IMG/VR virus record: IMGVR_UViG_3300039039_000012
Direction: 5' to 3' (one strand)
Length of the DNA: 64,000 bases
From: an uncultured virus (IMG/VR IMGVR_UViG_3300039039_000012)
Lineage: Duplodnaviria; Heunggongvirae; Uroviricota; Caudoviricetes; Crassvirales
Shown: in pieces, positions 1 through 54,310 of the stretch
Layout: each line of letters starts with the position of its first letter
Numbering within the stretch: position 1 is the stretch's first letter
Position numbers and translations under genes: made by a program
The notes under the pieces: generated by a model
What the model was told of the DNA's origin: nothing
What the model saw: only the letters and a program-made list of their open reading frames with translations
The model's database searches: none

Positions 1-3000
1 ATTAGCAATACTTTCAAGTTTATTATTAATATTAGATAAAAATAAAGGAAGATTATTAAATCCAGCACTATCTAAATCAAAAAATTCAAGAAGAGCTTTT
101 TCAACTCCTTGTTGTTGAGCATTTTCTTTAAATCTATCAAAAAATACAAAACGATTAAGATTTTTAATAGTACCATTAGAATTTAAATCAATATGTCCAT
201 TGTCATCTAATCCAATACCAAGTTCAGCACAAGTTTTTTCAAAACTATTTCTAATATTAGCTACATAATTATTAAATACTTTATCTTTAAGTTCATTAAG
301 TTCAGTTCGATTAGGAAGATTATCAAGCATTTTCTTCATAATCTGAATAGCAGCTTTATTACTAGCATCAACCATATGTTGAGGAACTTCTTGTTGGCGA
401 TAAAGATAATTATAACTAAATAATTCAGAATTATCAAATACATTATTATCAAATTCTTTAAGAGCTTCATCAGTTAAAACACCATCATTATTCCAAAGTG
501 TCATTCTGTTATGTTGTGCAACTTTAACAGTTTCAACAGTATTAATTTGATGAATACCTCTATTAGTCATTATATTATAAACTTTTTCAAGTTCTGTTCC
601 TTTAATAAGTTTAGGGATAAGAACAAACTCAGCATTCTTTACTTGTCTAGGAACTTCAATACCAACAGTAGTATCATAATATAAATCATAATAGAAATTC
701 TTTTGAATTTGAACTTTATTAGCAAATTTAGTCCAATCAATTTTATCTATTGAAGTATCATCTGTAAGACTTTGAATAAGTCCAGCATATTTATCTAATT
801 CACCAGCAGCAGTAATACGACGAATCCATTCTTCAAGAGTAATATAAGATTGAGCATCATTAGTATTAACACCGCCTTTAAATGGTTCTAGTATTCGTTC
901 TCTATCTTTTTTATCAAGTCCAGCTTTTTTAAGTTGGTCATCAAGTCTATCAATAACAACTTTATCAGAAGCTTTAAAAGTATTATAAATAGTAACACCC
1001 CTAAATTTATCTTGAAGAACTACTTTTTTATGTTTAGTAACACCATTAACAGTATAAGGAACAGTAACAGCATTACCTTTGATAGTTATATCATATAAAT
1101 CAGTAGCTATATCTAAATCATTTTTAGTAAAATCAGTATTACCAAAAGGATTACCACTAGCTTGTACTTCTTTAATACGTTTTAGAATAGCTTGACCATT
1201 CTTATAAAAACTTTGGTCACCACCATACATATCGTACATACTATCTCTAACAAGATAATCATTAACTAGAAATTCAGCTAAAGATTCATTATTAATCCTA
1301 TCATCAATAAATGTACCATATTTATTTTTAAGTTCTTTATAACCATTAGTTATATATTCATTTAACCAATCAGCAACAGCATCTTCAAGAGCAATACGTT
1401 GTTCTGCATTAAGAACTACTTGATTATTAATATAGCTAAGTCCATGTGTAGACCCCCCGTAGAGGATGTCAATAGTCTTACCATACCCAATTAGTTCATT
1501 AAACGCTCCATTACTATTAGGAGTAATTTTACTAACTAAACGTTTAAAACTAAATACTCTACCAGCTAAAACTTTATGTCCATCTTTAGTAGTAAATACA
1601 TTACCTTTTCCATCTTTATGGTATTGATTATAAAAATGTTCAGGTTTATTATTATAAGTATCACTAAATTCAAAATCTCCATTAGTTAAAATAGGATTAC
1701 CATTAGCATTAGTCTTAAACATTACATTAACAGCTTGAGCTATATTAGTAAGTTCTTGAATAACTATATTATAATACTGTTTAAATAATGGATGCTCTCT
1801 ATTTATAATTTTAGAACCATCTTCTAGTTGACTACGTAATCCAGCAAGACTATATCTAGGAGCAGTAATAGTAAAGTTTTTAGGAGCATCACTAGGTATA
1901 GGAAGTAAATAATTAGCAGTAGGAGTTTCAGAATTATTAATATCAGTCATAAATAATCCCATAGCAGTAATTAAATAATCACCGTCACTCATACTACGAT
2001 ATAAATCATTATTGTTATTATCTAATTCGCTAATACCATTAAGAAGAGAAGTTTTAAACATACTACGAGCATATTCGGTAAGTTTAGGAGTTCCATTTCC
2101 AATTCTTCTAAACAATCCATAATTAATTATATTACCATTACTATCTCTATGTTCAAGAAGTAAATTACTATAATCATATTGATGACTAGCAAACTTTTGT
2201 TTAGCATAAGCTTCAACCATAGCGTTTTGCTCTTCAACAGTAGATTTATCATCATTGATTATTTTAGCAATGTTAGTAATAAAACTTCTATTAATAACAT
2301 CAGAACTTAAATTACCTTCAGGATTACGAGAATTAAGTTCAACAGGAATATAAATAATATCTTTAAAGACATCAGCCATTTGATATATAATAGAAGTATC
2401 ACCTCTATTAATAAAACTATCAGGCATTTTAGTTCCTTTATCCTTTTTAAGCGCTTCTACATATTTATTATAGTTTTCAACTGTACGATTAATAACATTG
2501 GCAAAATTAATAAGATTATTAGCCATAGCTACACGACCAATCTTAGCAATAGCTAAATTAAAACTAGCTTGATTAATATCTGGAAATATTTCTTTAAAAG
2601 CATCATATAAATAAAGATTAGCATGAGGAGTATTTTTATATCTATCATATATACGAAACTTTTCACGAGCAGTAGGAACACGATTAGTAATAATATTATT
2701 CTTAACATTATTATAAAAAGTATTTTGTAAAATAGTACGAGAATCAGTATTAGGATTAGTTACACGAGCACGAACATAACTATTACCATTAGAATCAGTT
2801 TGAATATAAGTTTCAATTTTAGATATAATAGGTTTATTAAACACCATCATATACTTATTAGCAAATACTTTATTTTTGCTAAGTAAATCATGTAATTGAA
2901 TTAAACATTCACAATTTGGAATAGTTTCAGATATACGTTTAAGACTAGCTATAAAATTATCTACATTACTAGTATCAGCACTAGCATATAATATTTTAGA

Positions 3001-3933
3001 TAAATAATTAGCATCAGAAAAAGTAACAACTCCTAATTCATTATTAGTATCAAAAGGATAACTTCCATTATCAAGTTGAGAAGCAGCAGTAAGTTTAGGT
3101 AAACTTGCAAGATGATATTTAATAATTTCTTCTACGTGTTTATTAAAATCTTTAACTTCACCAATACTTAAATTCCAAAGTTGAGTCATTAAATCAATAC
3201 CATCATCTATACTATTTTCATCACCTTCAGTAGAAGTTTCATCAAGATAACCGCCTAATTCTTCATAATCAGTAGTTTGATATAATTCATCTCGTTTAAT
3301 AAGTTTAGCTACATTTTTATTATTAAAAAGAGCTTCATTAAATTCAGTATTAGTTAAAGAACGAAGTAATGCACCATAATTAAAATCTTGAGCATTACCA
3401 TATTTACGAAGAAATGCTCCAAGACCATTAATTTTAATAGCAGGATTTGGATTATTAATAAAGCTATTAAGTTCATTATTTCTAGCTTCATTACTTCCAG
3501 CTAATTTCTTAGCACGTTTAAGTCCAGCATTAATAACAGTTTCATTAGTACGTTTTTTAATTTCATTAAAATTTAATGGAGCACCATTATATAGAAAATT
3601 AAAACTAAGTTTATTCATAATATCAGCCATATAAGTAATAGCTGTATCTCTAGCTTTAATTGTACTAAACAAACCACGTTCTTCTTTTTCAGCAACAGAA
3701 GCTATATCATCCATATTACGAAGTTTAATAGCTCTAGCTTCAAGAAGAGCATTATAAGCTTGTCTTCCAGAAGTTTTAACATTAATACCTTTATCAGCTA
3801 CAATCTTCTTAAAGATTGGGTCTTCAACCATAGCTATAAGACTATAATAATCAGCATTATTAGAACCATGTTCTTTAATAATAATGTTATTAAGATTATT
3901 ATATCCTACAAGTTTAATATTTCCACAACTCAT
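1..3933 (-). CDS. Giant virion RNA polymerase-type protein of crAss-like phages, N-terminal 1311 aa (runs off the window start)
   Basis: Not in the ORF track because its stop is outside the window. Translated by hand from ATG at 3933 (MSCGNIKLVGY...); the same frame is open at the points checked, including position 1. It sits downstream of two other large ejected-protein genes, as in Crassvirales. Catalytic DxDxD motif not seen in the window. Confidence 0.7.
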   Translation of the reverse strand, partial: MSCGNIKLVGYNNLNNIIIKEHGSNNADYYSLIAMVEDPIFKKIVADKGINVKTSGRQAYNALLEARAIKLRNMDDIASVAEKEERGLFSTIKARDTAITYMADIMNKLSFNFLYNGAPLNFNEIKKRTNETVINAGLKRAKKLAGSNEARNNELNSFINNPNPAIKINGLGAFLRKYGNAQDFNYGALLRSLTNTEFNEALFNNKNVAKLIKRDELYQTTDYEELGGYLDETSTEGDENSIDDGIDLMTQLWNLSIGEVKDFNKHVEEIIKYHLASLPKLTAASQLDNGSYPFDTNNELGVVTFSDANYLSKILYASADTSNVDNFIASLKRISETIPNCECLIQLHDLLSKNKVFANKYMMVFNKPIISKIETYIQTDSNGNSYVRARVTNPNTDSRTILQNTFYNNVKNNIITNRVPTAREKFRIYDRYKNTPHANLYLYDAFKEIFPDINQASFNLAIAKIGRVAMANNLINFANVINRTVENYNKYVEALKKDKGTKMPDSFINRGDTSIIYQMADVFKDIIYIPVELNSRNPEGNLSSDVINRSFITNIAKIINDDKSTVEEQNAMVEAYAKQKFASHQYDYSNLLLEHRDSNGNIINYGLFRRIGNGTPKLTEYARSMFKTSLLNGISELDNNNNDLYRSMSDGDYLITAMGLFMTDINNSETPTANYLLPIPSDAPKNFTITAPRYSLAGLRSQLEDGSKIINREHPLFKQYYNIVIQELTNIAQAVNVMFKTNANGNPILTNGDFEFSDTYNNKPEHFYNQYHKDGKGNVFTTKDGHKVLAGRVFSFKRLVSKITPNSNGAFNELIGYGKTIDILYGGSTHGLSYINNQVVLNAEQRIALEDAVADWLNEYITNGYKELKNKYGTFIDDRINNESLAEFLVNDYLVRDSMYDMYGGDQSFYKNGQAILKRIKEVQASGNPFGNTDFTKNDLDIATDLYDITIKGNAVTVPYTVNGVTKHKKVVLQDKFRGVTIYNTFKASDKVVIDRLDDQLKKAGLDKKDRERILEPFKGGVNTNDAQSYITLEEWIRRITAAGELDKYAGLIQSLTDDTSIDKIDWTKFANKVQIQKNFYYDLYYDTTVGIEVPRQVKNAEFVLIPKLIKGTELEKVYNIMTNRGIHQINTVETVKVAQHNRMTLWNNDGVLTDEALKEFDNNVFDNSELFSYNYLYRQQEVPQHMVDASNKAAIQIMKKMLDNLPNRTELNELKDKVFNNYVANIRNSFEKTCAELGIGLDDNGHIDLNSNGTIKNLNRFVFFDRFKENAQQQGVEKALLEFFDLDSAGFNNLPLFLSNINNKLESIAN

Positions 3934-3970
3934 AAGTTTATATTTAAGTTTAAATTCATTAATAGTAATA

Positions 3971-4063: not shown

Positions 4064-7000
4064 CTACATACAGCTAAAACTGATGCGCCCTGTGTCAAGC
4101 AAAGTGGCAAATTCGGGCTGTTGGTCTATTGGTAAACAGCTAGTTAATTCAGCCATATTTGACACCACATCATCATCAACACTACTAAACATATCAAGTC
4201 CATCATTAAGATTATCATTATTATAATTATAATCTTGACTGTTATCTTCATTAGGATTTTCAATTTGTTCTGTACTAACAGTTTCTTCTTCAAATTGAAA
4301 AGTTCCTTGAATAGCCTCTTGATTACTTTCTTTAGGCATTTTTTTAATAGCTTTATAAGCATCTCTAGCAGCAGCTAATAAACTATCTTCATTAATCTTA
4401 ATACCTAACATATCAGCAATAACTTCAAGAAGTCTACTAAATAAAGTCTTACGTTTATTAACTTTTCTATTATCATATTTAATTTCATTAAGTGCAGTCA
4501 TAAGAGCATTACTAGTAATACTTTCAACTAGAAATTCTTCAAGAGCTTCACTTGTATTAAAGTTCTCAAACAGATAAGGTTTAAGTCTTTCTTTAGTAGA
4601 ATCATCTTGAGTATCAAGCCAAGCTTTAAATTTATCATAAATAGGTTTAACTAAAGTAAGAGCTTGTTCAGTATTATATTTAGTATAAAGTTGTCTATGT
4701 AAACTTTCATGAAGTATAATATTAACAACTCGATAAACTCTTTGACCAGCAATAGCAGAACTATTAAGTTCAATAGTATCTGTATCACGATGATAAACAG
4801 CATTAACTTTATTACCATTATTATCAGTAATACTATCTACAACTTGAATATTTTTAGGCAATATACCAATCTTTTGAAGAGCATTAATATAATCAATAGC
4901 AGTTTGGTCATTAGCAAAATACTTTTTAAGTCCACGAGTTAAATTCTTAGCAGTTATAGCAGATTCAAAAGCATTAAAATTAATAGCATTAAGAGTATCA
5001 TCTAACATGAACTCTGATAGCTGTTCAGGTATTGCTCCATCCTCCACGGGGGGTCTACCCTCAAGTTCATAAGTAATATCGAGTTTAGAATGAATATCTA
5101 TTTGCCAATTACCAGCAGTTTCATCTGTATTAGTATTAGCTAATTTAGTTCTAACTAAGCCATTACTAATAATAAAATCTTGATAACTATTATAATTATA
5201 AGTTTTACCATCAATATTTATAATAGTTTTACCATTTTCACGATAAATATATTTATTAGTTTTATTATTAGTTTTTGTACTATCATTAATAAAATCTTTA
5301 CTAATAGCAAATTGAGCATAGTTAAACATTTCATCAATAACAGGACGAAGAGCATTATCTAATTCATCAATAGTACTAGCATTAATACCATAACTTTTAC
5401 CTATTTTAAAAGCACTATTAACAACATAAGGAGAATTAATAATAATATTACGTTTATAATTACCAGCATCAGAATTAATAGTAAAAGCATAATCCTTACC
5501 ATTAAAATGTGCACCTTTAACATAAAAGCCTATATTAGTAGGATTAATACTAATTTGAAGTCCAGTATTTCTATCTCCGTTAATAAGTTTATTATTTCCA
5601 AATATATCTCCAAGACTTTGTTTAAGTTCACCAAAACTTATTTTTCCACTAATATAATCTCTACAAAGATTATTAACTTCATTCTTAATAGAATTAGTAA
5701 TACGTTGAGCATCACCTTTAAGTAGATTACTATTTAATGGAACTTGTTTACAAAAAGCATATAGAGAAGTACCATCACTACTTGGAATACTAATAACAGG
5801 CATACCATTAGTAGTAAGATTTTCAATAATAGTAGGTTTACTTTCTCCATTAAGATATACTTGACCTTGTACAACTACACCAAGTTTATTAACATCTTCA
5901 TTATAATTAACTACTGTTTCTTGTACATCATTCCATTCACCATTAGCATCATCAATAGTATTAAGAACTCCATATTTAACATTAACAGCTTTAACTTTAC
6001 CTTTAAAATCACCTTTAACTATTGTAATAGCTTGGTCATAACTATTAAGAAGATTATTAAACCAACGATTAATACTAGCTTCATGACTATTTTCATAAGG
6101 CTGATTAAATATGTATTTAGTAAGATTAACAAGATGCCCAGCTAAATCAAAACTTGCAACAGGAGTAGTAAAGTTTTTAACAATATCAGGATATTTAACT
6201 TCAAATTCTTTAAATAAAGTATCAAGTTCTTTATTTGTAACTTCTTCTTTAACTGCAAGTTCATATAAATGACCAATAAATTCTTCATCAAATCTATCAC
6301 CATCAAGAATACTAATTAAAGCATCTTTAAGCGGAGAAACAACTTGACCATTTTCAGCATGAATATTATATTTCCAACCTTGATTAACCATATCATAATT
6401 ACCAAACTTATCAATATTTGGAACTCCTATATAACCAATAATTGTATCATTAGCAAATATATCAATACGTTTAAGTTTAATATTATATACAGCTTCTAAA
6501 TAATCACCTTGTTTAATACTAGTAAATGCTTTAACATTTTCATTCTCTACTATATATTTAAGATTAACATTATTAGTATGCTCAACTTGAAGTCTTTCAA
6601 GACGTTCTTTAGCAATACCATCTATATATTGAACAAATTGTTTAGCATTAAGTTTCTTAATAGTTGATTCATCAGTAGCACGATATTTACCTTGATTATT
6701 AGTGCTGGCGTAAAGATAGTTTTTTATTTGATTAAACAAGTAATTTTTAATAATTTTATTACCCGTAACACTATCTATATATTCAACTAATTGACCAATA
6801 CTAAGATAGACTTTGCCATTAACAATTTTACCTCTAGTATTACCTTCACTATCAACACTATTAGCAAAATCATCCATAATAGCTTCTATATTGCGTTCAT
6901 TACCTGTAACAGTAGCATAAGTAGCATTAAGTAATAAACGTCTAGTACTATCATCTTGAACAGAACTATATAAACTACCGCCTGTAAGACCGTCAATAAT

Positions 7001-9937
7001 ATTATTAACTATGTCAGTAGCTTCCGTTTGTTCAAATCCAGCTTGATTAAGTTTATCAATAAAAGACTGTCTAGCATTAAGTAAATCACTACTAGTAGAT
7101 TCATGTCCTAAAGAATCTTCTAAATCAGCAATACTTTCATAAACTAAATCAGTACCTATTTGACCGCGTTCAAATTCATCATCTGGAAGAGTATTATTAA
7201 CTTCAGATTTAGGAGTACTAATAGGTTCTTGAGAAATTGGTTGTTCAGTTTGAGATTGAGGTTGTTCAGTATTAGTAGGCTCACTAGGAACCGCTTCGCT
7301 TCGCTCCGCTATACTCCCCGTGGAGGATGGAGATGAGTTAGTATCATCTACATCAGTTTCATTAACTTCATTAACATCAGGATTAACAGGGGCAACTTCT
7401 TCCTCTTTAGGAGCATTATTAACATCGTTTTCAATCTCAGCAATCTCAGCTAATTGCTCTATTGTATTTTTAAGATGTTCATTACCTTTAGAACTTAAAT
7501 CAAGTGCAGCATAAGCATCTCTAATAACTTTATCTATATTAGGTTTATTACCATTATTAGCATCTTTAATAACAGAATTGACATATTCTTTACCATATTG
7601 TTTATAAGCATTACGTAAATCGTCCATAGCTTTATTAACAATCTTTTTACGACTATTATCAAAGAAGTTATTAAGATAAGTTATACGAGATTTAATATTA
7701 TCATCAGATAAATTAAGTTGATTTTTATTAACCTCAACATTAATCTCAGCATTAACAACTTCTGCTAAATCTTTAAATACTTCATTATATTGTTTTTGAA
7801 GTTGAATAGCTGATTGAATATCATTTTTATTTTCAATATCAATAGGAGTATAAAGTTTATTAATAGCATCTAGACGTTCATTTAATTGAGCAATACGTTC
7901 TTGCTTAACAGAATTATTAATTGCTGCATTATCTTGAATAGTTTTAACATCTCTTTGAATACTATTAATAATATGCTGATAAATACCATTCTTATCAGAA
8001 TTAATATCAACATCTTCAATATGATTATTTGTAATATCTTGATTTAAAACATTATTAGCCCAATTAAGAAGATTATTATAATTTTCTTGACGATTACGAG
8101 CATGAACCATTTGGGTAGCTATAATACGACCAACTTCAAATCCGCCACCAAGTCTATTAACTTTATTTAAAGTAGTATTATATTCATTTTTAAGATTATT
8201 AATTTCAGTTTTAAATCTATTAATAAGTTCACTACTTTCTTGTTGTTGTAATCCAAGTTTATTAGTAATACTATCATTAAATTCTTTACTATTAATAGAA
8301 CTTTCAAGAAGTCCTAAATTACCAGCGTTCATAGAATTAATAATAATATTATCCATATATTCTTTTTCAGCTATACTACGAAATTCTTCTTCAGTACCAG
8401 CAATAATATCTGGATTAACTTGATTACCATTTTCATCAGTAATAGTTATAAATGGATTTTTACCATTAGCAATACTATTAAGTCTTTCTTGATATGCTTG
8501 AAAAGTAGCAGTACGACCAAGAATTTCGTTTTCTCTTTGTTTTTCAGCAGAAGTCCAATCTTTATCAAGACGTTTATTAATAAACTCTCCAGCTTTATTC
8601 ATAACACTACTAAAAGTAACACCACCAAGAGCACCCCAAAATGCTTGCTCCCATAACATTGGGTCTTGAAGATAATCTTTAATAGTTTGTTGAGGAATAT
8701 CTTTATCAAATACTTTTTTACCATTATATAAACCATCTTGGCTAGCTATATAATTAATAGCTTCTTCAACCCCTTCTGTCCATTCAGCTCTAACACCATG
8801 AAGAATATCATTACCCACATCTTTTAATGTACTAGTAATAGCTTGTTTAGTAGTTTTATTACTTAAAGCATTAGTAATTGCAGCAGCATCATCAATATTA
8901 CTATTAAATGCAGTATTTAAATTTCTAAGTCTAGAACTAGTTGTATTACCACTTAAAGCATTTTTCCATAAGTTCTTTAAACTATAAACTTGCCATACGT
9001 CAAAAAGAACATTAGCCCAATCTTTAGCAAAAGTAATATCAGCACTATTTTTAGCAATATCTTTAGCTACTTCTTCATCAGACATATCTTTATATTTAGG
9101 ATTATTATTATAAAACTCTTCTCTTTGTTTATCATTCATATTAGCAAGTTGAGTTTTAGAATAATCTTCAATATCATTATAAGTTTGTCTAGCTTCTTGA
9201 TAATTTTCAAGATAACGAGAAGGAACTCCAATAGCAGTAGCTTCTGCTATTCTATTAGTAATTGCTCTACTCTTTTGTGTCATATTAATAGCATTAGCCA
9301 TTTTATTGGCTAATTTATTAAACTTTATACCTTTACCTAATAAAGAAATACCTTTAGCAAGACCGGTACTAGGAACCATAAGAGTTAAAGAACTAGCTAT
9401 ACTAGGAGCATTACTAGCCCACCAAGCAAAATCTCCAATATCAAATGCAGCATTAGGATTTTCTCGATATATAGCTAATCTTTCATTAATAGATTCTTTT
9501 AAAAATTCAAGTCCAGAACTTATTTCAGATTGATAATCATTAGGGGTATCACTAATCATATTATAAAATGCGTCTGCTAAATCAGCAAAACCAATAGCTG
9601 TTCCAACAGTAATTTCATTACCAATTTGTCCAATCATTCTTAATCCTTGTTCCCAATTACTTTGATTAACAGCACGTTCTTTATCAAGTTTTTCAGGGTC
9701 ATCAACAGGATTAACATAAACATCATAAGGAGCATATTTATCTATATCATATTGGTTAAGATTATATGATTGCCCAGCAATGCGACTAAATAAATGACCA
9801 CGACCCTGGTCACTAATAGAAGTGCCAGGGTTGTAATCAACTAAAGTAGGAGGCTGTATAGCCCCCTTTTTAGTTTTAGGATTATATTCAGGATTAGGTG
9901 TTTTGTTACCACCTTGTAGAAACTTTAATACATCCAT
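4064..9937 (-). CDS. Large virion/ejected protein (1957 aa), RNAP-associated, with C-terminal zincin-like domain
   Basis: ILHESLH (HExxH) followed by EEFLVE near the C terminus; glycine-rich hydrophobic N-terminal segments; synteny with crAss RNAP-associated large genes. Confidence 0.65.
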   Translation of the reverse strand: MDVLKFLQGGNKTPNPEYNPKTKKGAIQPPTLVDYNPGTSISDQGRGHLFSRIAGQSYNLNQYDIDKYAPYDVYVNPVDDPEKLDKERAVNQSNWEQGLRMIGQIGNEITVGTAIGFADLADAFYNMISDTPNDYQSEISSGLEFLKESINERLAIYRENPNAAFDIGDFAWWASNAPSIASSLTLMVPSTGLAKGISLLGKGIKFNKLANKMANAINMTQKSRAITNRIAEATAIGVPSRYLENYQEARQTYNDIEDYSKTQLANMNDKQREEFYNNNPKYKDMSDEEVAKDIAKNSADITFAKDWANVLFDVWQVYSLKNLWKNALSGNTTSSRLRNLNTAFNSNIDDAAAITNALSNKTTKQAITSTLKDVGNDILHGVRAEWTEGVEEAINYIASQDGLYNGKKVFDKDIPQQTIKDYLQDPMLWEQAFWGALGGVTFSSVMNKAGEFINKRLDKDWTSAEKQRENEILGRTATFQAYQERLNSIANGKNPFITITDENGNQVNPDIIAGTEEEFRSIAEKEYMDNIIINSMNAGNLGLLESSINSKEFNDSITNKLGLQQQESSELINRFKTEINNLKNEYNTTLNKVNRLGGGFEVGRIIATQMVHARNRQENYNNLLNWANNVLNQDITNNHIEDVDINSDKNGIYQHIINSIQRDVKTIQDNAAINNSVKQERIAQLNERLDAINKLYTPIDIENKNDIQSAIQLQKQYNEVFKDLAEVVNAEINVEVNKNQLNLSDDNIKSRITYLNNFFDNSRKKIVNKAMDDLRNAYKQYGKEYVNSVIKDANNGNKPNIDKVIRDAYAALDLSSKGNEHLKNTIEQLAEIAEIENDVNNAPKEEEVAPVNPDVNEVNETDVDDTNSSPSSTGSIAERSEAVPSEPTNTEQPQSQTEQPISQEPISTPKSEVNNTLPDDEFERGQIGTDLVYESIADLEDSLGHESTSSDLLNARQSFIDKLNQAGFEQTEATDIVNNIIDGLTGGSLYSSVQDDSTRRLLLNATYATVTGNERNIEAIMDDFANSVDSEGNTRGKIVNGKVYLSIGQLVEYIDSVTGNKIIKNYLFNQIKNYLYASTNNQGKYRATDESTIKKLNAKQFVQYIDGIAKERLERLQVEHTNNVNLKYIVENENVKAFTSIKQGDYLEAVYNIKLKRIDIFANDTIIGYIGVPNIDKFGNYDMVNQGWKYNIHAENGQVVSPLKDALISILDGDRFDEEFIGHLYELAVKEEVTNKELDTLFKEFEVKYPDIVKNFTTPVASFDLAGHLVNLTKYIFNQPYENSHEASINRWFNNLLNSYDQAITIVKGDFKGKVKAVNVKYGVLNTIDDANGEWNDVQETVVNYNEDVNKLGVVVQGQVYLNGESKPTIIENLTTNGMPVISIPSSDGTSLYAFCKQVPLNSNLLKGDAQRITNSIKNEVNNLCRDYISGKISFGELKQSLGDIFGNNKLINGDRNTGLQISINPTNIGFYVKGAHFNGKDYAFTINSDAGNYKRNIIINSPYVVNSAFKIGKSYGINASTIDELDNALRPVIDEMFNYAQFAISKDFINDSTKTNNKTNKYIYRENGKTIINIDGKTYNYNSYQDFIISNGLVRTKLANTNTDETAGNWQIDIHSKLDITYELEGRPPVEDGAIPEQLSEFMLDDTLNAINFNAFESAITAKNLTRGLKKYFANDQTAIDYINALQKIGILPKNIQVVDSITDNNGNKVNAVYHRDTDTIELNSSAIAGQRVYRVVNIILHESLHRQLYTKYNTEQALTLVKPIYDKFKAWLDTQDDSTKERLKPYLFENFNTSEALEEFLVESITSNALMTALNEIKYDNRKVNKRKTLFSRLLEVIADMLGIKINEDSLLAAARDAYKAIKKMPKESNQEAIQGTFQFEEETVSTEQIENPNEDNSQDYNYNNDNLNDGLDMFSSVDDDVVSNMAELTSCLPIDQQPEFATLLDTGRISFSCM

Positions 9938-12511: not shown

Positions 12512-14746
12512 TTATTTTCCTCCAAGTTTTCTACGTTTACGAATTACAAATTCATCATAATCAACTCCAGCATCTCTCATTATTCTATCATCTACATTAG
12601 GAGCAGATGCCCTCATAGCACCAATAGTATTATTTAAAGCTTTACGATTTTCATATCTACTAATCATATCTTGAATACCAGCATTAATTCCAGTAAATAA
12701 ATTATTTACATTAGTAAGTTTAGCTTCTCTAATACCATTATCAAATGCTGTTTTTCTATCTATATATTGATTGTATTGTTGAGCATTAAATTGACGTACA
12801 CTTTGTTGATTACGTCTATCTTGATTAATAAGATTAGTTTCAATATTTTCTTTTTCACCATAAAGTTGATTAACAGCTTGACCAGCAGCATTGCGAACTC
12901 TTTGTTTACGAGCTAAACCTACACGACTACTAGCAGTATTAGAGTCAATATCTCGATAAGCTTCAAATTTATCTTCTCTAATTCTATCAAGTTGAGGATT
13001 AATATTATATTTAGTTTTAAGTTTATTAGCACTAATAAGAGTAGGTCTGCCAGGACCTCTCATTTTATTAATAGCTCGTTTACTTGCAAAATAACTACCT
13101 AATCCTCCAGCAATATTACTACCAAGACCTATCCAATCAGCAGTAGTAATGTTTTTAAATTTACCTTGACCTTTACCATCAGATTGACTAGATTGTTTAA
13201 CAGGAACACTAGTAGAAACAGGTAAAGTAGTAGGAATACTAGCTTCTATAGTAGGAAGATTACGATTATAAGTAGCAGTAGGAGGAGTTTTAGTAGAACT
13301 AGATTGAACTGATTGACTTGACTTATTCCTTCCTCTACGGGGGGTATTCCCTTTAGATTTAGTAGTAGGTAAATTTGGAATATTAGTATTATCAACAGTT
13401 ATATTTTTATTATTACCATGACTCCAACCAGCTTTAACAAGACCACTAGTAATAGCAGGTCCATCATTAAATAAAGGAAGTTCACGTTCTGCATAATATT
13501 GAGGACGACGATTTCCATTATCTACTTTAGAATTTTTAGTAGGATTATCATTAGAAGTATTAGATTTGTTTTTATGCCATCTTCCATTTCTAAATGTATA
13601 TTCAGAACCAGAAACAGTTTCACCTCTAGCAGATCTATCAATAGGATATGGACTTGTTCTAGTAATAGTTCTATCAGTTATCGGAATATAATATCCATTA
13701 TCTTCATCATATTCCCAAGTTCTACCATGACGATTAATACGTTTTCCACCATCTCTAAGTTTGTCGTGCCGACCCCCCGTAGAGGATGGAGAATGAAGTA
13801 ATCCATTCTTAACATTACCACTAATACTAATAATCAATCCATTACTACCTTTCTTTCTAAGTTCAGGATATTTATTATAGACTTTAGCTTTAACATCATT
13901 TCTACCATGTAATCCAGCTAATCTTAAAGCATCAATAGCATCGGCTTTAGTAGGAATAGGATAACTTCTATGTCCTCCAGCAAAATCTTTTTTAGCTACA
14001 CTAGGATAAGGTTTCTTTTTAGAACCATAATCTTTATCTCTACTTAAACCACCCATAGCTTTTATAGTACCGTCATCATTAATTTTATTTCTATCTTTAA
14101 AATCTTCTTGAGCTTTAAATACTTTATTTGGATTAGCTCCACCCATAACTAATTTAGCAGGACTAATTCCATTAATAATTGGTTGAGCAGAATAAACTTT
14201 AAGTTCATCACCATTAGTTTCTACAATTTCACCATCTTCTACTTCAATACCAGTTTTATCACTAGGACCAATATCAATACCACCTTGACTATGTTTTCTT
14301 CCATTCATATAAAAGAAATTATTACCAAGAGGATGAGCAATACCACCATCAACTACATTAGGAACTTTTCCACCAGTAGCATATTGTTTTTGTGGGATAT
14401 TTCTTCCATTAGTTCTAGGAGTTTGAATAATATTAAATGGAAAAGTTGGTCCAAGGTCTTCATCATTAGGAAAAGATTCTTTATTAAAATTCTTAACATA
14501 ATCAACAAGTCTACCGGCAGTATTATCCATTAATTGTTCTCTATCATTTCTAGGTATTAAATTATTAATACCATTATAAAGAAATTCATTACCAAGTCTT
14601 ATTAATCCGGTAGTTTTAGCTACTTTATCATAAACTCCACCAAGTGGAGGAATACCACTTTTAATAAATCTGCCATCTTTAGTAACTGTACCTTTAAATT
14701 CACTAGGCATGTCACTTATATGAATAGTTTTATTTTTTCTAGGCAT
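12512..14746 (-). CDS. Virion cargo protein (744 aa)
   Basis: GRKHSQGGIDI...EVEDGE segment typical of crAss cargo proteins, disordered middle, hydrophobic Gly-rich helix, Q/R-rich C terminus. Confidence 0.55.
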   Translation of the reverse strand: MPRKNKTIHISDMPSEFKGTVTKDGRFIKSGIPPLGGVYDKVAKTTGLIRLGNEFLYNGINNLIPRNDREQLMDNTAGRLVDYVKNFNKESFPNDEDLGPTFPFNIIQTPRTNGRNIPQKQYATGGKVPNVVDGGIAHPLGNNFFYMNGRKHSQGGIDIGPSDKTGIEVEDGEIVETNGDELKVYSAQPIINGISPAKLVMGGANPNKVFKAQEDFKDRNKINDDGTIKAMGGLSRDKDYGSKKKPYPSVAKKDFAGGHRSYPIPTKADAIDALRLAGLHGRNDVKAKVYNKYPELRKKGSNGLIISISGNVKNGLLHSPSSTGGRHDKLRDGGKRINRHGRTWEYDEDNGYYIPITDRTITRTSPYPIDRSARGETVSGSEYTFRNGRWHKNKSNTSNDNPTKNSKVDNGNRRPQYYAERELPLFNDGPAITSGLVKAGWSHGNNKNITVDNTNIPNLPTTKSKGNTPRRGRNKSSQSVQSSSTKTPPTATYNRNLPTIEASIPTTLPVSTSVPVKQSSQSDGKGQGKFKNITTADWIGLGSNIAGGLGSYFASKRAINKMRGPGRPTLISANKLKTKYNINPQLDRIREDKFEAYRDIDSNTASSRVGLARKQRVRNAAGQAVNQLYGEKENIETNLINQDRRNQQSVRQFNAQQYNQYIDRKTAFDNGIREAKLTNVNNLFTGINAGIQDMISRYENRKALNNTIGAMRASAPNVDDRIMRDAGVDYDEFVIRKRRKLGGK

Positions 14747-20172: not shown

Positions 20173-21069
20173 TTATTTAGGAAAAGTAAAGTTATAAAAG
20201 AACTCATTCCAACCACTATCATCATCACTTTGTTCATCTAATAAAATACTAGTCTTAATATCTTTTTTCATACTTTCCCACAAATAGAAAGGATTAGTAC
20301 CATATTGACTAGCAGAAAGATTAAATACAGGATGTTTATATCCCCTCATAAGCATACGAGCCATACAATAATAAGCAAGACCTTGAATTAATTTACCATT
20401 AGCAGGTATCACAGGAACTTCACAATGATAATTATCACTATATTGAGTTTCAATATCTTTATAAACAATAGTTATACAAGTATCATTAAAATTAAGTTCG
20501 ATAGTATTACCATCTACTAGAACATAATTATGACTTGACTTATCATATCCTCCACGGGGGATATAACAATGAGAATGAACTTCATGCTGACATCTTGGAC
20601 ATTCAGTATTGTTATGAAGAGAATAAACTACAGGATTACATCCTACTTTGCCAGTATCAATAACTTCTCTAGTTCTAGAACCGTTTGGGCAACAATCAGC
20701 AGGCATACCAAGATAATCTTTATTAGTAGCACGTTCCGGACTTTCGTCCTCCACTCCACCCCCCGTAGAGGATGGAATTGAATTATTATCACTACAATTA
20801 TATCTACTATTATCAGCTCTAGGTACTTCACAACCGTTACTATCATAAACTTTAAGACCGTCATCAATAAGACAACATTTACTTTTAGCTATCTTATTAG
20901 TGACGGTTAATTTAATTTTCTTATCTACTTTACGAAGAACTTTAAGTTCATTCATAGCATCAACACACCAAGCAGCAACTCTAGGAATCCAATCACTATT
21001 ACTAGGATTGAAATCGTTGTCTATTTTTGCTATTATGTGCTCCACGTTTATACTTTTGTTGTTCGACAT
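20173..21069 (-). CDS. Tail tubular/ring protein (P22 gp4-like)
   Basis: Likely start MSNNKS at 21069; IIAKIDNDF...WCVDAM N terminus; immediately upstream of the muzzle gene. Confidence 0.55.
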   Translation of the reverse strand: MSNNKSINVEHIIAKIDNDFNPSNSDWIPRVAAWCVDAMNELKVLRKVDKKIKLTVTNKIAKSKCCLIDDGLKVYDSNGCEVPRADNSRYNCSDNNSIPSSTGGGVEDESPERATNKDYLGMPADCCPNGSRTREVIDTGKVGCNPVVYSLHNNTECPRCQHEVHSHCYIPRGGYDKSSHNYVLVDGNTIELNFNDTCITIVYKDIETQYSDNYHCEVPVIPANGKLIQGLAYYCMARMLMRGYKHPVFNLSASQYGTNPFYLWESMKKDIKTSILLDEQSDDDSGWNEFFYNFTFPK

Positions 21070-26454: not shown

Positions 26455-26662
26455 AGCTTTATTATTTATAGATTTCACATTGTAAATATTTATGTACAGT
26501 CATAGAGGCTATTTCTAGCCTCATAGACAGACTTTTATCAAACCGTGTATAGTTAATCATCTAGGCTCACAAACAGCTAAATTCGATAAGCTATACTCCC
26601 CGTAGAGGATGTGATAGGCTAGAATCAGCTTTGTAATCTAGCTAATAACTACTCACATTATA

Positions 26663-41795: not shown

Positions 41796-41858
41796 ATATT
41801 CTTTAAGTTTACTAAATTCTTAGTGTAGACTCCCCGTAGAGGATGGAATACATTCATG

Positions 41859-44860: not shown

Positions 44861-46018
44861 TCAAATGTTTTTAAGTTTGTTTTTATAAGCACTAACAAGA
44901 GCACTATTAGCAGGATTCTTAAACCATACAACAGCTTCCTTAACATTAGCACCGATAAATTCACCATCAGGAGTAGTAATATTCTGATTATGAATTGCTC
45001 TGATAAATTCTCCACGAGAAACAAGAACCTCAATTAAAGACTTAATAGTAATATCTTTATCATTACAAAGTTTATTAAACTTAACAGGTTCGTTTGTACT
45101 AAATTTATCAAGATGCGATTGCTTATCAACCATATCCATAGACATGCCATTAGGAATATTAATATTGTTAGCAACACAGTATTGAATAAATACAGCATCA
45201 AACAAATCACTATTCGTGAGAAGTTTAACGTAGTTACTCTTAGCAGCATTAATTTCCTGACGATGTTTAGCAAGACGCTCAGCTTCTCTTTGGTCATCTT
45301 TAAAATAGAATCTAATAGATGGATCAGAATTAATAAGAGCAATATCTTTAGCTACATCTTTATACAATAAACAATGGCGATAAATTAGATAATCATCAAG
45401 AACAACAGGATAACCATATTTATATTTTTCACTTTCAAGAAGATTAAGTTTAGTAATCTTAGACTCAAGAGCTTCTCGAAGTTCTTTAACTCCTTTACGG
45501 TCACTATTTAAATAGGCAGTTTCAATAGCTTCTTCTTCAGCTCTAAAACGAAGATAATCTCGTTTACGATTCCAAAAGAAAGAAATATCAAAAGTCTTAC
45601 CTAATTCATCAACAGCAACACTAATGTTATTAAGATAAGCCTTAACCCTTGAAATAAAGTTTTCGTTATTAGGAGCAAGACCAATCAAAGCAGGAAAATA
45701 AGATTCAATCTCGCCTTTATTAGAAGAAAGAGTACGAGAACTACGAACACAACTACCAATTTTATCCATTCGTTTAGGTAATGTTTTATCATTAGCTCTA
45801 CGATATAATGAATAATTAGTAACTAAATTAATAGTAATAGTTCGTTTTTCAGTATAAGGTTCATCAAGACTTTCATCTCTAAATCCTACTGTATTGTTAG
45901 GTCTATTATCATCTCCATCCTCTACGGGGGGTATAACCTGTTTAACTGTATTTTCATTAGAAGCAGCAGGAGCATTTTCTCCTGCTTTATTAGCTTCGCC
46001 TACTTTATTAAAATCCAT
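44861..46018 (-). CDS. Conserved crAss head-module protein (385 aa)
   Basis: Directly downstream of the MCP; IGANVKEAVVWF C-terminal motif. Confidence 0.55.
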   Translation of the reverse strand: MDFNKVGEANKAGENAPAASNENTVKQVIPPVEDGDDNRPNNTVGFRDESLDEPYTEKRTITINLVTNYSLYRRANDKTLPKRMDKIGSCVRSSRTLSSNKGEIESYFPALIGLAPNNENFISRVKAYLNNISVAVDELGKTFDISFFWNRKRDYLRFRAEEEAIETAYLNSDRKGVKELREALESKITKLNLLESEKYKYGYPVVLDDYLIYRHCLLYKDVAKDIALINSDPSIRFYFKDDQREAERLAKHRQEINAAKSNYVKLLTNSDLFDAVFIQYCVANNINIPNGMSMDMVDKQSHLDKFSTNEPVKFNKLCNDKDITIKSLIEVLVSRGEFIRAIHNQNITTPDGEFIGANVKEAVVWFKNPANSALVSAYKNKLKNI

Positions 46019-47535: not shown

Positions 47536-48852
47536 TTAATAACCAAAACGTTCATCTTTTAGAACGTCATTTTTACTATCAGGTTTAGTTATTTTAATAG
47601 CTCCTCTTGTAGATTTACGTTGACTTGCAGTAAGTTTCAACTTTTTAGCTTCTTTATCAGAAACAGCCATTTCTATCAAACTATCATAACCTTTACCTGT
47701 ATATTTAAGCCAAGCTTTAAGCAGTTCTTCATCGCGTCTTTCAGCAGGAGATAACTTCATTAAATCATTTTCATAACGAGAAAGTCCTTTATCATCAACT
47801 TGATAAACATAATTAAAGAAATCTTCTGGAGTTGTAGAAATTTGTTTTCCATTACGTTCAATAATAACAGTTTCAGGAATACGATAACCGGCAATTTGTC
47901 GTTTATCAATACATTCTTTAACACCATTCCAAAATTCTACAAGTTGTTTTTCTTCTTCTGCTTTAACTCGTAAAGCCTCTTTAGCATTAGCTTCACGTAC
48001 ATCGTTATCAGCTTTCTGAAGAGCTTCAAGTTCTTCTTTAGCAACATTGAAAAGTTCATTACTATCTTTCAAATATTGAATATACTTATCAACATTACCA
48101 CGACGATTAAATTCCTTAAACGCTTCACGAACAATAGCTTCTTGTTGGCTCACATTATTTTCATCGACTTCAATACCGCTTCTATCTCTAAGTTCACCAA
48201 AGCCTTCAAATGAATTACCATTTGCAACATAATAATTAAGAAAATCACTAACAACAGGATAATCTTCAAATAATTTATTAACTCCAGCTTTAGCAAATTC
48301 ATCACGTTTTAAATCAAGAACGGATTGAACATAACTTGCAACTCCTTGAGGAGTATTATCAAAAGTAACTGGTTTGCCATCTTCTGAAGTAACAGAAATA
48401 CCTACAAGTTCTTGAATTGATTTAACATCAATTTTATCTTCATTACTAGTATCTTCTACTTCAAATTCTTTAAGATAAGCAGCAACTTCATTTTTAGCTT
48501 TAAAGATATTACCTTTATCGTCAATAAGATTACCGTCTTTATCAACAGTATATTTATTATCTCCATCTTCAATAATAGTACCTTCTTCTAAATCATGCTC
48601 ATTAGCAGTAGCATCATCAGGATTTTTAGTATCCTTGGTTTGACCCCCCGTAGAGGATGAAGTTTGTTTATCTTTATTAGCATCACCATTATTGCCATCT
48701 CCATTACCATTTCCGGTAATATCATCAACAGCATTACCATTAGCATCTAACTGTCCTGTTTTACCTGTATCAAGGTCAGTAACGTCGTCAGTAGGTTTTA
48801 CATCAACATTAGATGTTTCACCGTTAAAACCAAAACTATCAAAACTAGGCAT
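47536..48852 (-). CDS. Acidic scaffold-like head assembly protein (438 aa)
   Basis: D/E-rich disordered N terminus; lies between portal and MCP. Confidence 0.6.
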   Translation of the reverse strand: MPSFDSFGFNGETSNVDVKPTDDVTDLDTGKTGQLDANGNAVDDITGNGNGDGNNGDANKDKQTSSSTGGQTKDTKNPDDATANEHDLEEGTIIEDGDNKYTVDKDGNLIDDKGNIFKAKNEVAAYLKEFEVEDTSNEDKIDVKSIQELVGISVTSEDGKPVTFDNTPQGVASYVQSVLDLKRDEFAKAGVNKLFEDYPVVSDFLNYYVANGNSFEGFGELRDRSGIEVDENNVSQQEAIVREAFKEFNRRGNVDKYIQYLKDSNELFNVAKEELEALQKADNDVREANAKEALRVKAEEEKQLVEFWNGVKECIDKRQIAGYRIPETVIIERNGKQISTTPEDFFNYVYQVDDKGLSRYENDLMKLSPAERRDEELLKAWLKYTGKGYDSLIEMAVSDKEAKKLKLTASQRKSTRGAIKITKPDSKNDVLKDERFGY

Positions 48853-53881: not shown

Positions 53882-53887
53882 AATATT

Positions 53888-54310
53888 TTATTTAACAAGT
53901 AAACAAACAACAAAAGCGATAGCGCATACAGCACCACCGCCTACCAAATATCTATTATTACGTTTAATACGTTCAATAGATTTATTTAAATTATCATTAA
54001 CTTTATTAGTATTATCAAGATTATATTGAAGAATTTTAATCTCATTATTGATAGTATTATATTTAAGTTTTTGAAGACTAATAATACTATCTTGTTCTTC
54101 AATTATATCTTTATAAAGTTTACTTTTAATAATTTTAGCATTAGCAACTTTAATCATACTAATAGGAACAGAAACAACTGTGTCAGTAGTATTGACTCCC
54201 CGTGGAGGATGCACTACATTATTAATCTCACTCTGACACCAACTTCTTGAATAACTCCCAAGAAGCACTATCACTAAGACTAATAACTTTATCATCAATA
54301 TCTTTTTCAT
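53888..54310 (-). CDS. Membrane/coiled-coil protein, possible spanin component
   Basis: Signal-like N terminus, coiled coil, C-terminal TM; next to the endolysin. Confidence 0.45.
   Translation of the reverse strand: MKKILMIKLLVLVIVLLGSYSRSWCQSEINNVVHPPRGVNTTDTVVSVPISMIKVANAKIIKSKLYKDIIEEQDSIISLQKLKYNTINNEIKILQYNLDNTNKVNDNLNKSIERIKRNNRYLVGGGAVCAIAFVVCLLVK

What the first reader, a model, noticed from the sequence alone, without database searches (positions are those of the whole stretch)
1452..54211. Plus-strand copies of the 17-bp motif are almost evenly spaced (about 4-7 kb)
Seen: successive gaps between plus-strand copies are 5861, 6459, 6986, 5837, 4787, 4243, 6204, 6814 and 5552 bp, tightening to 2383 and 2079 near the strand switch. 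Minus-strand gaps are 8291, 7217, 11101, 14269 and 12858. Random placement would give far more variable gaps. Inference: selection for regular polar landmarks, for example re-priming or helicase-reloading sites, stepwise genome entry, or packaging/translocation signals analogous to KOPS or Chi. This favours function over selfish spread.
Basis: partly seen in the sequence, partly recalled or inferred. Interest (0 to 1): 0.8.

Follow-up and report, generated by a model that had tools for sequence, protein, structure and literature searches.

The report
Evenly spaced strand-specific crAssphage DNA word
The prototype human-gut crAssphage keeps about 33 copies of one GC-rich DNA word, written even through its genes and spaced evenly along each strand, which looks like an undescribed signal for phage DNA-handling machinery whose reader is still unknown.

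Summary
The window is p-crAssphage (Carjivirus communis). The word ACYCCCCGTRGAGGATG (extended form about 27 nt) occurs 20 times in the window, 13 on plus and 7 on minus, against 0.02 expected. Three complete genomes each carry 33 orthologous copies. Plus-strand spacing is far more regular than chance (n=18, CV 0.31 vs 0.93, P about 2.5e-6). Strand labels matter (P=5.6e-4).

It is a DNA-level signal. 21 of 33 copies lie in genes, in all frames and both orientations. The word varies three-fold less than its flanks. Four other Intestiviridae genera carry their own spellings, partly at the same codons, and the amino acids follow the spelling.

Three cautions apply:
- Orientation bias is weak (18:14).
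- Much of the regularity is same-strand exclusion. A hard-core null still leaves P=0.0018 for plus but 0.25 for minus.
- Opposite-strand copies pair up closely, notably upstream of both RepL genes.

My best mechanism (about 0.35) is strand-specific start sites for DNA synthesis (priming or primosome loading). Nick sites, Chi/USS-like tags, a repeat with exclusion, transcription signals and architectural sites remain open.

My searches found no printed description. Earlier notes of this scan record the same phenomenon in other crAss-like genomes.

The parts
1452..1468 (+). word copy, perfect; inside the RNAP gene (gp44 homologue), antisense to it
   Evidence: Orthologous word present in cr3_1, jaberico and cr107_1.
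5038..5054 (-). word copy, perfect; inside the gp45 homologue, sense
7287..7329 (+). long form: GC-rich CGCT-box module (7287-7312) followed by the word (7313-7329); inside the gp45 homologue
13329..13345 (-). word copy, 1 mismatch; inside the gp47 homologue. Forms a divergent pair with 13772.
13772..13788 (+). word copy, perfect; inside the gp47 homologue
   Evidence: Orthologous word in cr3_1.
20546..20562 (-). word copy, 2 mismatches; inside the gp50 homologue. Forms a divergent pair with 20758.
20729..20774 (+). long form: GC-rich module with a GGAC-TTTC-GTCC hairpin (20729-20757) followed by the word (20758-20774); inside the gp50 homologue
26595..26611 (+). word copy, perfect; intergenic
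31382..31398 (+). word copy, perfect; inside the gp63 tail gene. Forms a convergent pair with 31647.
31647..31663 (-). word copy, perfect; inside the gp63 tail gene
35625..35641 (+). word copy, perfect; inside the BACON-domain gene (gp64 homologue)
41829..41845 (+). word copy, perfect; intergenic
45916..45932 (-). word copy, perfect; inside the gp73 homologue
48643..48659 (+). word copy, perfect; inside the gp75 homologue
54195..54211 (+). word copy, perfect; at the start of the gp78 homologue
56546..56594 (+). long form: GC-rich module with a GGCAC-TGC-GTGCC hairpin (56546-56577) followed by the word (56578-56594); intergenic
58657..58673 (+). word copy, perfect; left arm of the convergent inverted pair in the divergent-gene junction upstream of RepL
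   Evidence: I6: 22-nt arms, 95% complementary, 90 nt apart
58774..58822 (-). word copy (58774-58790) with its GC-rich hairpin module (58791-58822); right arm of the pair upstream of RepL
59063..59818 (+). RepL-family replication initiator gene (gp88 homologue), context of the pair
   Evidence: ORF; the reference homologue matches PF05732, E=6.9e-5.
63270..63286 (+). word copy, perfect; intergenic. Forms a convergent pair with 63397.
63397..63413 (-). degenerate word copy (2 mismatches), kept at this place in all genomes compared

Best explanation
The copies are a conserved, cis-acting word of crAssphage DNA that is read in one orientation. The core is ACYCCCCGTRGAGGATG. Weaker conservation extends it to about 27 nt, roughly TAGGNTAK-core-GA. 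The signal is kept at the level of DNA, not protein, on both strands. Same-strand copies never lie close together, and the plus-strand copies cover the genome at about 5.4 kb.

That this is a functional, strand-specific DNA signal I hold at about 0.8.

The mechanism I think most likely (about 0.35, inferred and not shown) is that each word marks where synthesis of a DNA strand is started or restarted. In this reading it is a recognition or loading site for the phage primase or primosome on single-stranded or unwound DNA. A word on a given strand would then serve forks moving one way. The two lattices would serve forks moving either way. The close opposite-strand pairs upstream of the two RepL genes would serve as bidirectional start points.
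For: Shown:
- Over-representation: 20 copies in the window against 0.02 expected.
- 33 of 33 copies are orthologous in three genomes.
- 21 of 33 copies lie inside CDS, in three frames and two orientations.
- Word positions are three-fold less polymorphic than the flanks (P=1e-5).
- Per-strand regularity: plus CV 0.31, P about 2.5e-6, and still P=0.0018 under a hard-core null.
- Strand labels are non-random given the positions (P=5.6e-4). This argues for a reader that tracks or sees one strand, not a symmetric duplex binder.
- Lineage spellings in four further Intestiviridae genera also show per-strand regularity.
- Words sit at the same codon across subfamilies, with the amino acids following the spelling. 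At the SNF2 site these are PVEE, PVKE, PVEE and PIKE.
- Close inverted pairs lie in intergenic DNA at the gene-arm junctions in 6 of 6 genomes examined. In Carjivirus they lie upstream of both RepL genes. One of these places is where Schmidtke et al. predict an origin (sections 10-11 read).
- 7 of 32 copies carry an adjacent GC-rich module. Four of these modules have a clear 4-7 bp hairpin whose stem sequence differs between copies and, at one site, between strains. A structure of that kind matters only in single-stranded nucleic acid.
- The phage encodes a primase: phrog_12622, E=2e-167. Atlas look-alikes carry Toprim_2 and Zn_ribbon_DnaG, which is a lead only.

Inferred or recalled:
- A primer reading AC(Y)CC from the word's first base would resemble the T7 primers pppACCC and pppACAC (recalled).
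- Hairpin-plus-sequence single-strand initiation signals on opposite strands are known from RSF1010 (recalled).
Against: - No direct evidence of priming. Only assembled contigs were available, so no molecule ends could be read.
- Known lagging-strand primases read 3-5 nt, not 17-27 nt (recalled).
- Most copies (25 of 32) have no adjacent hairpin.
- Orientation is nearly balanced (18:14), so a simple 'lagging strand of one origin' picture does not suffice.
- The minus lattice of this phage, and 6 of 11 strand sets overall, are no more regular than same-strand exclusion alone gives. Two strand sets in relatives have a 22-26 kb hole.
- The primase fold could not be obtained (pLDDT 35.5).
- The association with origins rests on RepL neighbourhood and on another group's prediction, not on mapped origins.
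Confidence: 0.35

Rival explanations
1. The words are sites of sequence-specific single-strand nicks, as in T5 and the phiKMV-like phages. The nicks would be made by a phage nickase. They might also supply 3'-OH ends for strand-displacement synthesis.
For: - The consensus is long, asymmetric and strand-specific.
- It lies partly in coding DNA.
- Strand labels matter.
- The resemblance to the roughly 20-nt nick consensus of phiKMV-like phages is recalled, not tested.
- Earlier scan notes also list this as closest known.
Against: - Copies lie on both strands, whereas T5 and phiKMV nicks lie on one strand (recalled).
- Opposite-strand copies only 26-120 bp apart would give staggered double-strand breaks.
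- A preprint reports nanopore reads of about 100 kb from encapsidated C. communis DNA, and 102-kb end-to-end reads for crAss001, made with the LSK109 ligation kit (passages read). That is hard to reconcile with 15-18 standing nicks per strand, unless the library preparation repaired them. Such a repair step is recalled and is not stated in the passages I read.
- No nickase was recognised among the 24 left-arm proteins scanned.
Confidence: 0.12
2. The word is a self-recognition tag read by a tracking recombination or nuclease machine. That would make it Chi-like protection or a recombination hotspot. Alternatively it spread by biased transmission, as DNA uptake sequences do, with even spacing because one tag per stretch suffices.
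For: The anatomy matches USS/DUS point for point:
- both strands carry copies about equally;
- copies run through genes in all frames;
- close inverted pairs lie between genes;
- there are lineage 'dialects';
- spacing is even.

That USS/DUS themselves have these properties is recalled.

The phage encodes RecT, a Gam-like protein, a PD-(D/E)XK nuclease and an SF1 helicase (annotation; Pfam).
Against: - Ends of long identical tracts between strains are not enriched near words: 10%, 8% and 5% lie within 100 bp against about 6.5% expected, P=0.27, 0.37 and 0.73. Power was low, with only 20-40 ends per pair.
- 17-27 nt is far longer than the 5-8 nt of Chi (recalled).
- The word is not a host-genome signal in what I could search. 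Multi-copy hits in the genome collection are crAss-like contigs of about 90-98 kb.
Confidence: 0.15
3. The word is a short repeat with no function of its own, selfish or neutral. Its regular look comes from selection against close direct repeats, which invite deletions. Inverted copies may sit close because they do not.
For: - In all 11 strand sets examined, no two same-strand copies lie closer than 1.2-3.5 kb, while opposite-strand copies lie 26-480 bp apart.
- With a hard-core null, 6 of 11 strand sets are no longer significantly regular.
- Some words sit in lineage-specific insertions. The DNAP word lies in 10 residues that are absent from three genera.
- Some copies share longer flanks. 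Copies 7313 and 58657 share 29 nt.
Against: - No copy-number or position differences among strains: 33 of 33.
- No terminal repeats or target duplications were seen in the flanks.
- There is purifying constraint on the word.
- Words are retained at orthologous codons across subfamilies, with amino acids bent to the spelling.
- The largest gap on the plus strand is too small even under exclusion (P=0.003).
- 5 of 11 strand sets are still too regular.
Confidence: 0.12
4. The word is a transcription or RNA signal. It could be a promoter or pause site for the phage's giant RNA polymerase, which prefers single-stranded templates. Or paired copies could form RNA hairpins acting as terminators or processing sites.
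For: - Copies are 5.8-fold enriched between genes: 12 of 33 against a 6.3% non-coding fraction, P=4e-7.
- Intergenic inverted pairs would fold into 17-22 bp stems (I6).
- The length resembles single-subunit phage RNAP promoters (recalled).
- The crAss-like virion RNAP transcribes single-stranded DNA well (Drobysheva et al. preprint, passages read).
Against: - 21 of 33 copies lie inside genes and in both orientations relative to them.
- The same preprint found no common motif upstream of transcripts made by the virion RNAP. It found host-type promoters for middle and late genes.
- Isolated copies have no partner to pair with.
- No Rfam family matched at gathering thresholds.
Confidence: 0.1
5. 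The word is a binding site for an architectural duplex-DNA protein that organises the genome for packaging, ejection or plasmid-like maintenance. The two IHF/HU-like proteins of the structural module are candidates.
For: - Sites are dispersed and evenly spread.
- IHF-like genes are conserved in the structural block (annotation).
- A phage-plasmid lifestyle has been proposed (Schmidtke et al.).
Against: - A duplex binder should not care on which strand the word is written. Yet regularity is per strand: all 33 together give CV 0.70, each strand gives 0.31 and 0.55, and the label shuffle gives P=5.6e-4.
- Close opposite-strand pairs would be redundant.
- The adjacent hairpin modules make no sense for duplex binding.
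Confidence: 0.07

Closest known systems
DNA uptake sequences (USS of Pasteurellaceae, DUS of Neisseriaceae)
   Same: - A short word over-represented by orders of magnitude.
- Present on both strands about equally.
- Written through genes in all frames at tolerant sites.
- Close inverted pairs between genes.
- Lineage-specific dialects.
- Spacing more even than chance.

The properties of USS/DUS are recalled.
   Different: - This is a phage genome, not a competent bacterium, and no uptake receptor is involved.
- The word is longer: 17 nt core, about 27 nt extended.
- Same-strand copies strictly avoid each other.
- In what I could search, the word was not found as a multi-copy feature of bacterial genomes apart from binned crAss contigs.
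Single-strand initiation signals and primase or primosome sites. Examples are ssiA/ssiB of RSF1010 read by RepB', the G4 and phiX174 complementary-strand origins, and T7 primase sites 5'-GGGTC-3' giving pppACCC. All are recalled.
   Same: - Strand-specific.
- Some copies are preceded by a small hairpin.
- Opposite-strand pairs lie beside replication-initiator genes.
- The word begins AC(Y)CC, like T7 primers.
   Different: - The known signals occur once or twice per replicon at the origin, or are 3-5 nt and abundant.
- Here a long word is repeated 15-18 times per strand across the whole genome.
- Priming at the word is not shown.
Nick-site motifs of T5 and phiKMV-like phages (recalled)
   Same: A long asymmetric consensus in a phage genome, strand-specific, with function unknown even in the model phages.
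   Different: - Those lie on one strand only and number 3-5 major sites. Here both strands carry 15-18 copies.
- Reads of about 100 kb from capsid DNA argue against standing nicks.
Chi sites and KOPS/SRS polar words (recalled)
   Same: Orientation-dependent words read by a tracking enzyme. Chi in E. coli has a density of about one per 5 kb per strand.
   Different: - Those words are 5-8 nt, strongly skewed with replication direction, and not evenly spaced.
- Here the word is 17-27 nt, nearly unskewed (18:14) and evenly spaced.

Membership tests
DNA uptake sequences (USS/DUS) | Short word, hundreds-fold over-represented, on both strands, inside genes in all frames | tested here: met
   20 copies against 0.02 expected. 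18 plus and 15 minus. 21 of 33 in CDS, in three frames and both orientations.
DNA uptake sequences (USS/DUS) | The word belongs to the genome of a naturally competent bacterium and is read by its uptake machinery | tested here: not met
   The carrier is a phage. 0 of 60 other genomes of G001's family have the word.
Single-strand initiation / primase recognition signals | Acts in one orientation only (strand-specific) | tested here: met
   Per-strand regularity exceeds label shuffles given the positions, P=5.6e-4.
Single-strand initiation / primase recognition signals | Hairpin or other single-strand structure forms part of the signal | tested here: inconclusive
   7 of 32 Carjivirus copies and 7 of 30 cr107_1 copies have a GC-rich module 5' of the word. 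Of the Carjivirus modules, four have a clear 4-7 bp hairpin with differing stems. There are none in cr271_1 or jaberico.
Single-strand initiation / primase recognition signals | A primer is made at the site | not testable with these tools
   Only Logan contigs were on hand, with no molecule ends.
Phage nick sites (T5, phiKMV-like) | All sites on one strand | tested here: not met
   18 plus and 15 minus copies.
Phage nick sites (T5, phiKMV-like) | Physical interruption of the strand in virion DNA | not testable with these tools
   No raw reads. Passages in a preprint report nanopore reads of about 100 kb from capsid DNA, which argues against nicks but may follow nick repair.
Chi / KOPS-type polar words | 5-8 nt word with strong skew along the replication or transcription direction | tested here: not met
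   17-nt core, about 27 nt extended. Orientation is 18:14 relative to gene direction, and 15:15 to 18:13 in the relatives.
Selfish miniature element (MITE / RPE-like) | Terminal repeats or target duplications, conserved flanks, and copy-number or position differences between strains | tested here: not met
   Flanks are unrelated apart from the optional GC module. 33 of 33 positions are shared by three genomes.
Phage RNA-polymerase promoter (T7-type) | Upstream of genes and co-oriented with them | tested here: not met
   21 of 33 copies lie inside CDS. Both orientations occur.

The most novel reading that the evidence does not exclude
Crassvirales replicate with a highly sequence-specific priming or primosome-loading system. 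The genome must therefore carry a lattice of start words on each strand, about one per 5-8 kb, written through genes. Paired words beside RepL genes act as origins. This would be a mode of replication control not known from any other phage or cell.
Probability: 0.3. Interest if true: 0.9.

Novelty: new variant of a known kind. Interest (0 to 1): 0.75.

Why it matters
crAssphage is the most abundant known virus of the human gut, and how it replicates and persists is still debated. A conserved lattice of strand-specific words that overrides protein coding points to an unknown piece of its DNA machinery. That piece can now be tested directly in cultured relatives that carry their own spelling. 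The word also shows that phage genomes can carry genome-wide 'architecture' signals of the kind known from bacterial chromosomes. In practice, it is a compact lineage marker for Crassvirales contigs, and it flags crAss contigs mis-binned into bacterial MAGs.

Tried and rejected
- Whole-genome request. No genome is held for the window. I used the public record BK010471 and two near-identical contigs instead.
- Rfam at gathering thresholds and tRNA scan: nothing.
- Reads test for nicks or transcript ends. All 24 runs offered were assembled contigs. Four RNA-library runs laid on window 41000-60999 gave long contigs (one piece spanning about 14 kb) and no start or end pile-ups (table 6: none). The 'loose ends' at word edges are local matches of contigs from other copies, not junctions. 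No verdict on transcription or nicks.
- Recombination-hotspot test. Ends of identical tracts of 300 bp or more between the three genome pairs are not enriched within 100 bp of words (P=0.27, 0.37, 0.73; 20-40 ends per pair). Power was low.
- Hairpin within the word. The Y and R positions do not covary as a pair; all four combinations occur (one search list).
- Protein-motif reading, rejected. Five different peptides arise from one DNA word.
- Host-signal reading. G001 belongs to a family of genomes of about 1 Mb and is evidently a mis-binned carrier, so says nothing about Bacteroidales hosts.
- Primase fold. The single-sequence model failed (pLDDT 35.5), there was no PDB sequence match and no Pfam hit. 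Only PHROG and Atlas leads remain.
- Maximal-order Markov word search was uninformative.
- Candidate words in crAss001 and cr10_1 are weaker leads. crAss001 has CTCCAGAAG, 29 copies against 0.4 expected, plus-strand CV 0.46, P=5e-4. cr10_1 has TACTCYRGA, 31 copies against 2.7 expected, P=0.04 and 0.27.
- Literature. Searches found no description of the word. Supplements were not read.

Full report
**What the window is.** The window has 29.5% G+C. It is 92-94% identical over 20 kb to published crAssphage genomes, including Carjivirus communis BK010471. Long genes run on the minus strand up to about 58.4 kb and on the plus strand after that. By the reference annotation these are the giant RNA polymerase, tail, capsid, portal and terminase genes, then a RepL gene and early genes. 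No whole genome is held for the window. I therefore used three stand-ins:
- BK010471 (97,065 bp);
- contig G001:C1 (97,134 bp);
- contig G002:C1 (91,329 bp).

**The observation.** The finding does not spell out its motif. A k-mer count recovers it as ACYCCCCGTRGAGGATG. At up to three mismatches the window has 20 copies, against 0.02 expected from shuffles.
- 7 minus copies. Two are slightly degenerate (13329 and 20546).

No plus copy was missed. Against uniform placement, the window's plus gaps give CV 0.30 (P=7e-5) and its minus gaps give CV 0.34 (P=0.014).

**The whole genome.** Each of the three complete genomes has 33 copies, 18 plus and 15 minus, in the same order. For the reference:

| Set | n | CV | P |
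|---|---|---|---|
| Plus | 18 | 0.313 (null 0.93) | 0 of 200,000 simulations; 2.5e-6 by Dirichlet sampling |
| Minus | 15 | 0.547 | 0.012 |
| All copies | 33 | 0.70 | 0.02 |

The largest plus gap, 8430 bp, has P about 1e-5. The smallest plus gap, 2078 bp, has P=2.5e-4.

Holding the 33 positions fixed and shuffling the strand labels gives the observed per-strand regularity in 0.056% of shuffles. The lattice is therefore a property of each strand, not of the sites as a whole. Opposite-strand copies also attract each other. 7 of 15 minus copies have a plus copy within 500 bp, against 2.8 expected (P=0.007).

**How much is mere exclusion?** Suppose same-strand copies are only forbidden to lie closer than the observed minimum. 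Then the plus strand is still too regular (CV P=0.0018, largest gap P=0.003), but the minus strand is not (P=0.25). I examined 11 strand sets from six genomes:
- 5 remain significant under this generous null.
- 4 do not.
- 2 (cr107_1 plus and jaberico plus) have one hole of 22-26 kb.
- In none of the 11 sets do two same-strand copies lie closer than 1.2 kb, whereas opposite-strand copies lie 26-480 bp apart.

The robust rule is strict same-strand avoidance. A coverage constraint comes on top of that and is clear on some strands only.

**It is a DNA-level word.**
- In the reference, 21 of 33 copies lie inside annotated genes. They use all three frames and both orientations and encode PSSTGG, ILYGGS, HPLRGV, PPVEDG or TPRGG.
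- Copies are nevertheless 5.8-fold enriched between genes: 12 of 33, where 6.3% of the genome is non-coding (P=4e-7).
- Conservation extends weakly to about 27 nt, from T-A-G-G-n-T-A-K before the core to G-A after it.
- Among the three genomes, which differ at 5-8% of aligned sites, the 15 fixed word positions vary in 11 of 495 cells. The flanks vary in 241 of 3480 cells (odds ratio 0.31, P=1e-5).
- The Y and R positions occur in all four combinations. The word is therefore not itself a hairpin.

**Orientation.** Relative to local gene direction, 18 copies are antisense and 14 sense in Carjivirus. In five relatives the counts are 18:13, 10:6, 15:15, 15:13 and 14:15. In Carjivirus the antisense copies are better kept: the minus-gene arm has 11 perfect plus copies against 4 perfect minus copies. 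Both strands are tiled throughout.

**Relatives.** Other genera of Intestiviridae carry their own spelling of the same word:

| Phage (genus or group) | Spelling | Copies |
|---|---|---|
| cr3_1 (Diorhovirus) | TCCCCCGTARAGGAA | 31 |
| cr271_1 (Obtuvirinae) | CCCCCGTAGAAG | 16 |
| cr107_1 (Churivirinae) | CCCCCRTARAGG | 30 |
| 'Rudgehvirus jaberico' (cultured) | CCCYGTARAGGA | 28 |

Expected counts are 0.04-0.3. Per-strand CVs are 0.36-0.42 on six of their eight strands. The exceptions are the two strands with a large hole and the five-copy strand of cr271_1. crAss001 (CTCCAGAAG, 29 copies against 0.4 expected) and cr10_1 (TACTCYRGA, 31 against 2.7) have weaker candidate words.

The answer is mixed. 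Among Carjivirus in-gene copies that could be aligned, a relative's word sits at the same codon in 7 of 13 (cr3_1), 4 of 11 (jaberico), 1 of 11 (cr271_1) and 3 of 12 (cr107_1). So there is both deep retention and turnover. At the SNF2 site the word is present in all four relatives, and the protein reads PVEE, PVKE, PVEE and PIKE according to the local spelling. The DNA word dictates the amino acids there, not the reverse. The DNA-polymerase word lies in a ten-residue insertion that is missing from three genera, so some copies arrive with small insertions.

**Pairs and long forms.**
- Close inverted pairs lie in intergenic DNA at the junctions where gene direction changes, in all six genomes examined.
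- In Carjivirus they lie upstream of both RepL genes: at 28074/28170 before gp43, and at 95742/95862 before gp88. The latter is window 58657/58774, with 22-nt arms, 95% complementary, 90 nt apart.
- Schmidtke et al. predict an origin directly upstream of that second RepL gene. They do not mention the word (term search and sections 10-11 read).
- 7 of 32 Carjivirus copies, four of them in the window, are preceded by a GC-rich module of CGCT boxes. In four of the seven it has a clear 4-7 bp hairpin whose stem differs from copy to copy.
- At the 58774 copy the window has GGAC-TTTC-GTCC where the reference has GAGC-TTC-GCTC.
- cr107_1 has 7 such modules among 30 copies. jaberico and cr271_1 have none.

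**Mechanism.** Shown: this is a conserved, orientation-sensitive DNA signal that tolerates opposite-strand neighbours but not same-strand ones, is optionally joined to a small hairpin, and is paired beside replication-initiator genes. The rest is inferred.

A reader that distinguishes strands and needs one site per few kilobases on each strand fits a process that runs along single strands. My first choice is initiation or re-initiation of DNA synthesis by the phage primase or primosome.
- The phage has a primase: phrog_12622, E=2e-167.
- Atlas look-alikes carry Toprim and DnaG zinc-ribbon domains. This is a lead only.
- Its fold could not be modelled.
- The orientation of the RepL-side pairs would send two syntheses through each other and outwards, co-directional with the genes of each arm.
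- The better-kept orientation in each arm is the one expected for lagging-strand starts of such forks.
- The first letters AC(Y)CC recall T7 primers (recalled).

None of this is direct evidence, and a 17-27 nt primase site would be unprecedented.

Evidence bearing on the rivals:
- Nick sites. They are weakened by reads of about 100 kb from capsid DNA (passages read; a nick-repair step in the kit is recalled and not stated) and by opposite-strand copies 26 bp apart.
- Recombination hotspot. It found no support in tract-end positions (low power).
- Described crAss promoters. These are host-type, and transcripts of the virion polymerase showed no common motif (Drobysheva et al. preprint, passages read).
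- Duplex architectural site. It does not explain the strand dependence.
- Functionless repeat under deletion avoidance. It explains the exclusion, but not the constraint on the word, the retention at orthologous codons, or the small largest gap.

**What could not be done.** All sequencing runs offered were assembled contigs. Laying four of them showed no molecule ends, so nicks, primers and transcript ends remain untested. I could not address Bacteroidales host genomes by name. The family of G001 consists of genomes of about 1 Mb, and G001 is evidently a mis-binned carrier of the phage contig.

**Novelty.** Searches by topic and by the word's own letters found no description. Supplements were not read. 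My tests agree with them. They add:
- the prototype phage's full lattice;
- the hard-core null;
- the strand-label test;
- the spelling-driven amino-acid changes;
- the RepL-side pairs;
- the hairpin modules.

The closest known kinds are uptake sequences, by anatomy, and single-strand initiation signals, by my preferred mechanism. It is a member of neither.

Noticed in passing
window 60054-60089, 60299-60334, 61231-61266: A 36-nt direct repeat occurs three times (78-92% identical) in the early region downstream of RepL. It ends in TAAATAYTTTG-like letters, which resemble the Bacteroidetes -7 promoter element (TAnnTTTG, recalled). These are candidate early promoters.
   Followed up: partly
window 7313-7341 and 58657-58685: These two plus copies share 29 identical letters, the word plus 12 downstream bases. 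That is longer than any other pair and suggests gene conversion or a recent copy event between a site inside gp45 and the RepL-side site.
   Followed up: no
G001:C1 (L003-L007); loci L046-L125: Complete or fragmentary crAssphage contigs are binned into unrelated assemblies. By their record titles these are MAGs labelled Clostridia, Mycoplasma and Saccharibacteria, and an isolate assembly of Chitinophaga silvisoli. The word flags them at once as mis-binning or contamination.
   Followed up: partly
L014 9108-12473 (cr3_1, NC_055874.1 59108-62473): By the record's annotation, the family-B DNA polymerase gene is split into two CDS by a homing-endonuclease gene. The Carjivirus dUTPase gene likewise carries an annotated intron with an HNH endonuclease (L001 24167-25851).
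   Followed up: no
window 1452-58657 versus BK010471 39089-95742: Over this span the window is about 550 bp longer than the reference: the offset is 37637 at the first copy and 37085 at the RepL-side copy. So the strains differ by indels in the structural arm, while all word copies stay in place.
   Followed up: no
L035-L040 (crAss001) 102365-102424 and L041-L045 (cr10_1): crAss001 has CTCCAGAAG 29 times on both strands, including a convergent pair 51 bp apart near the record's end. cr10_1 has TACTCYRGA 31 times. Both share ACTCC with the Carjivirus word and may be distant spellings of the same signal.
   Followed up: partly
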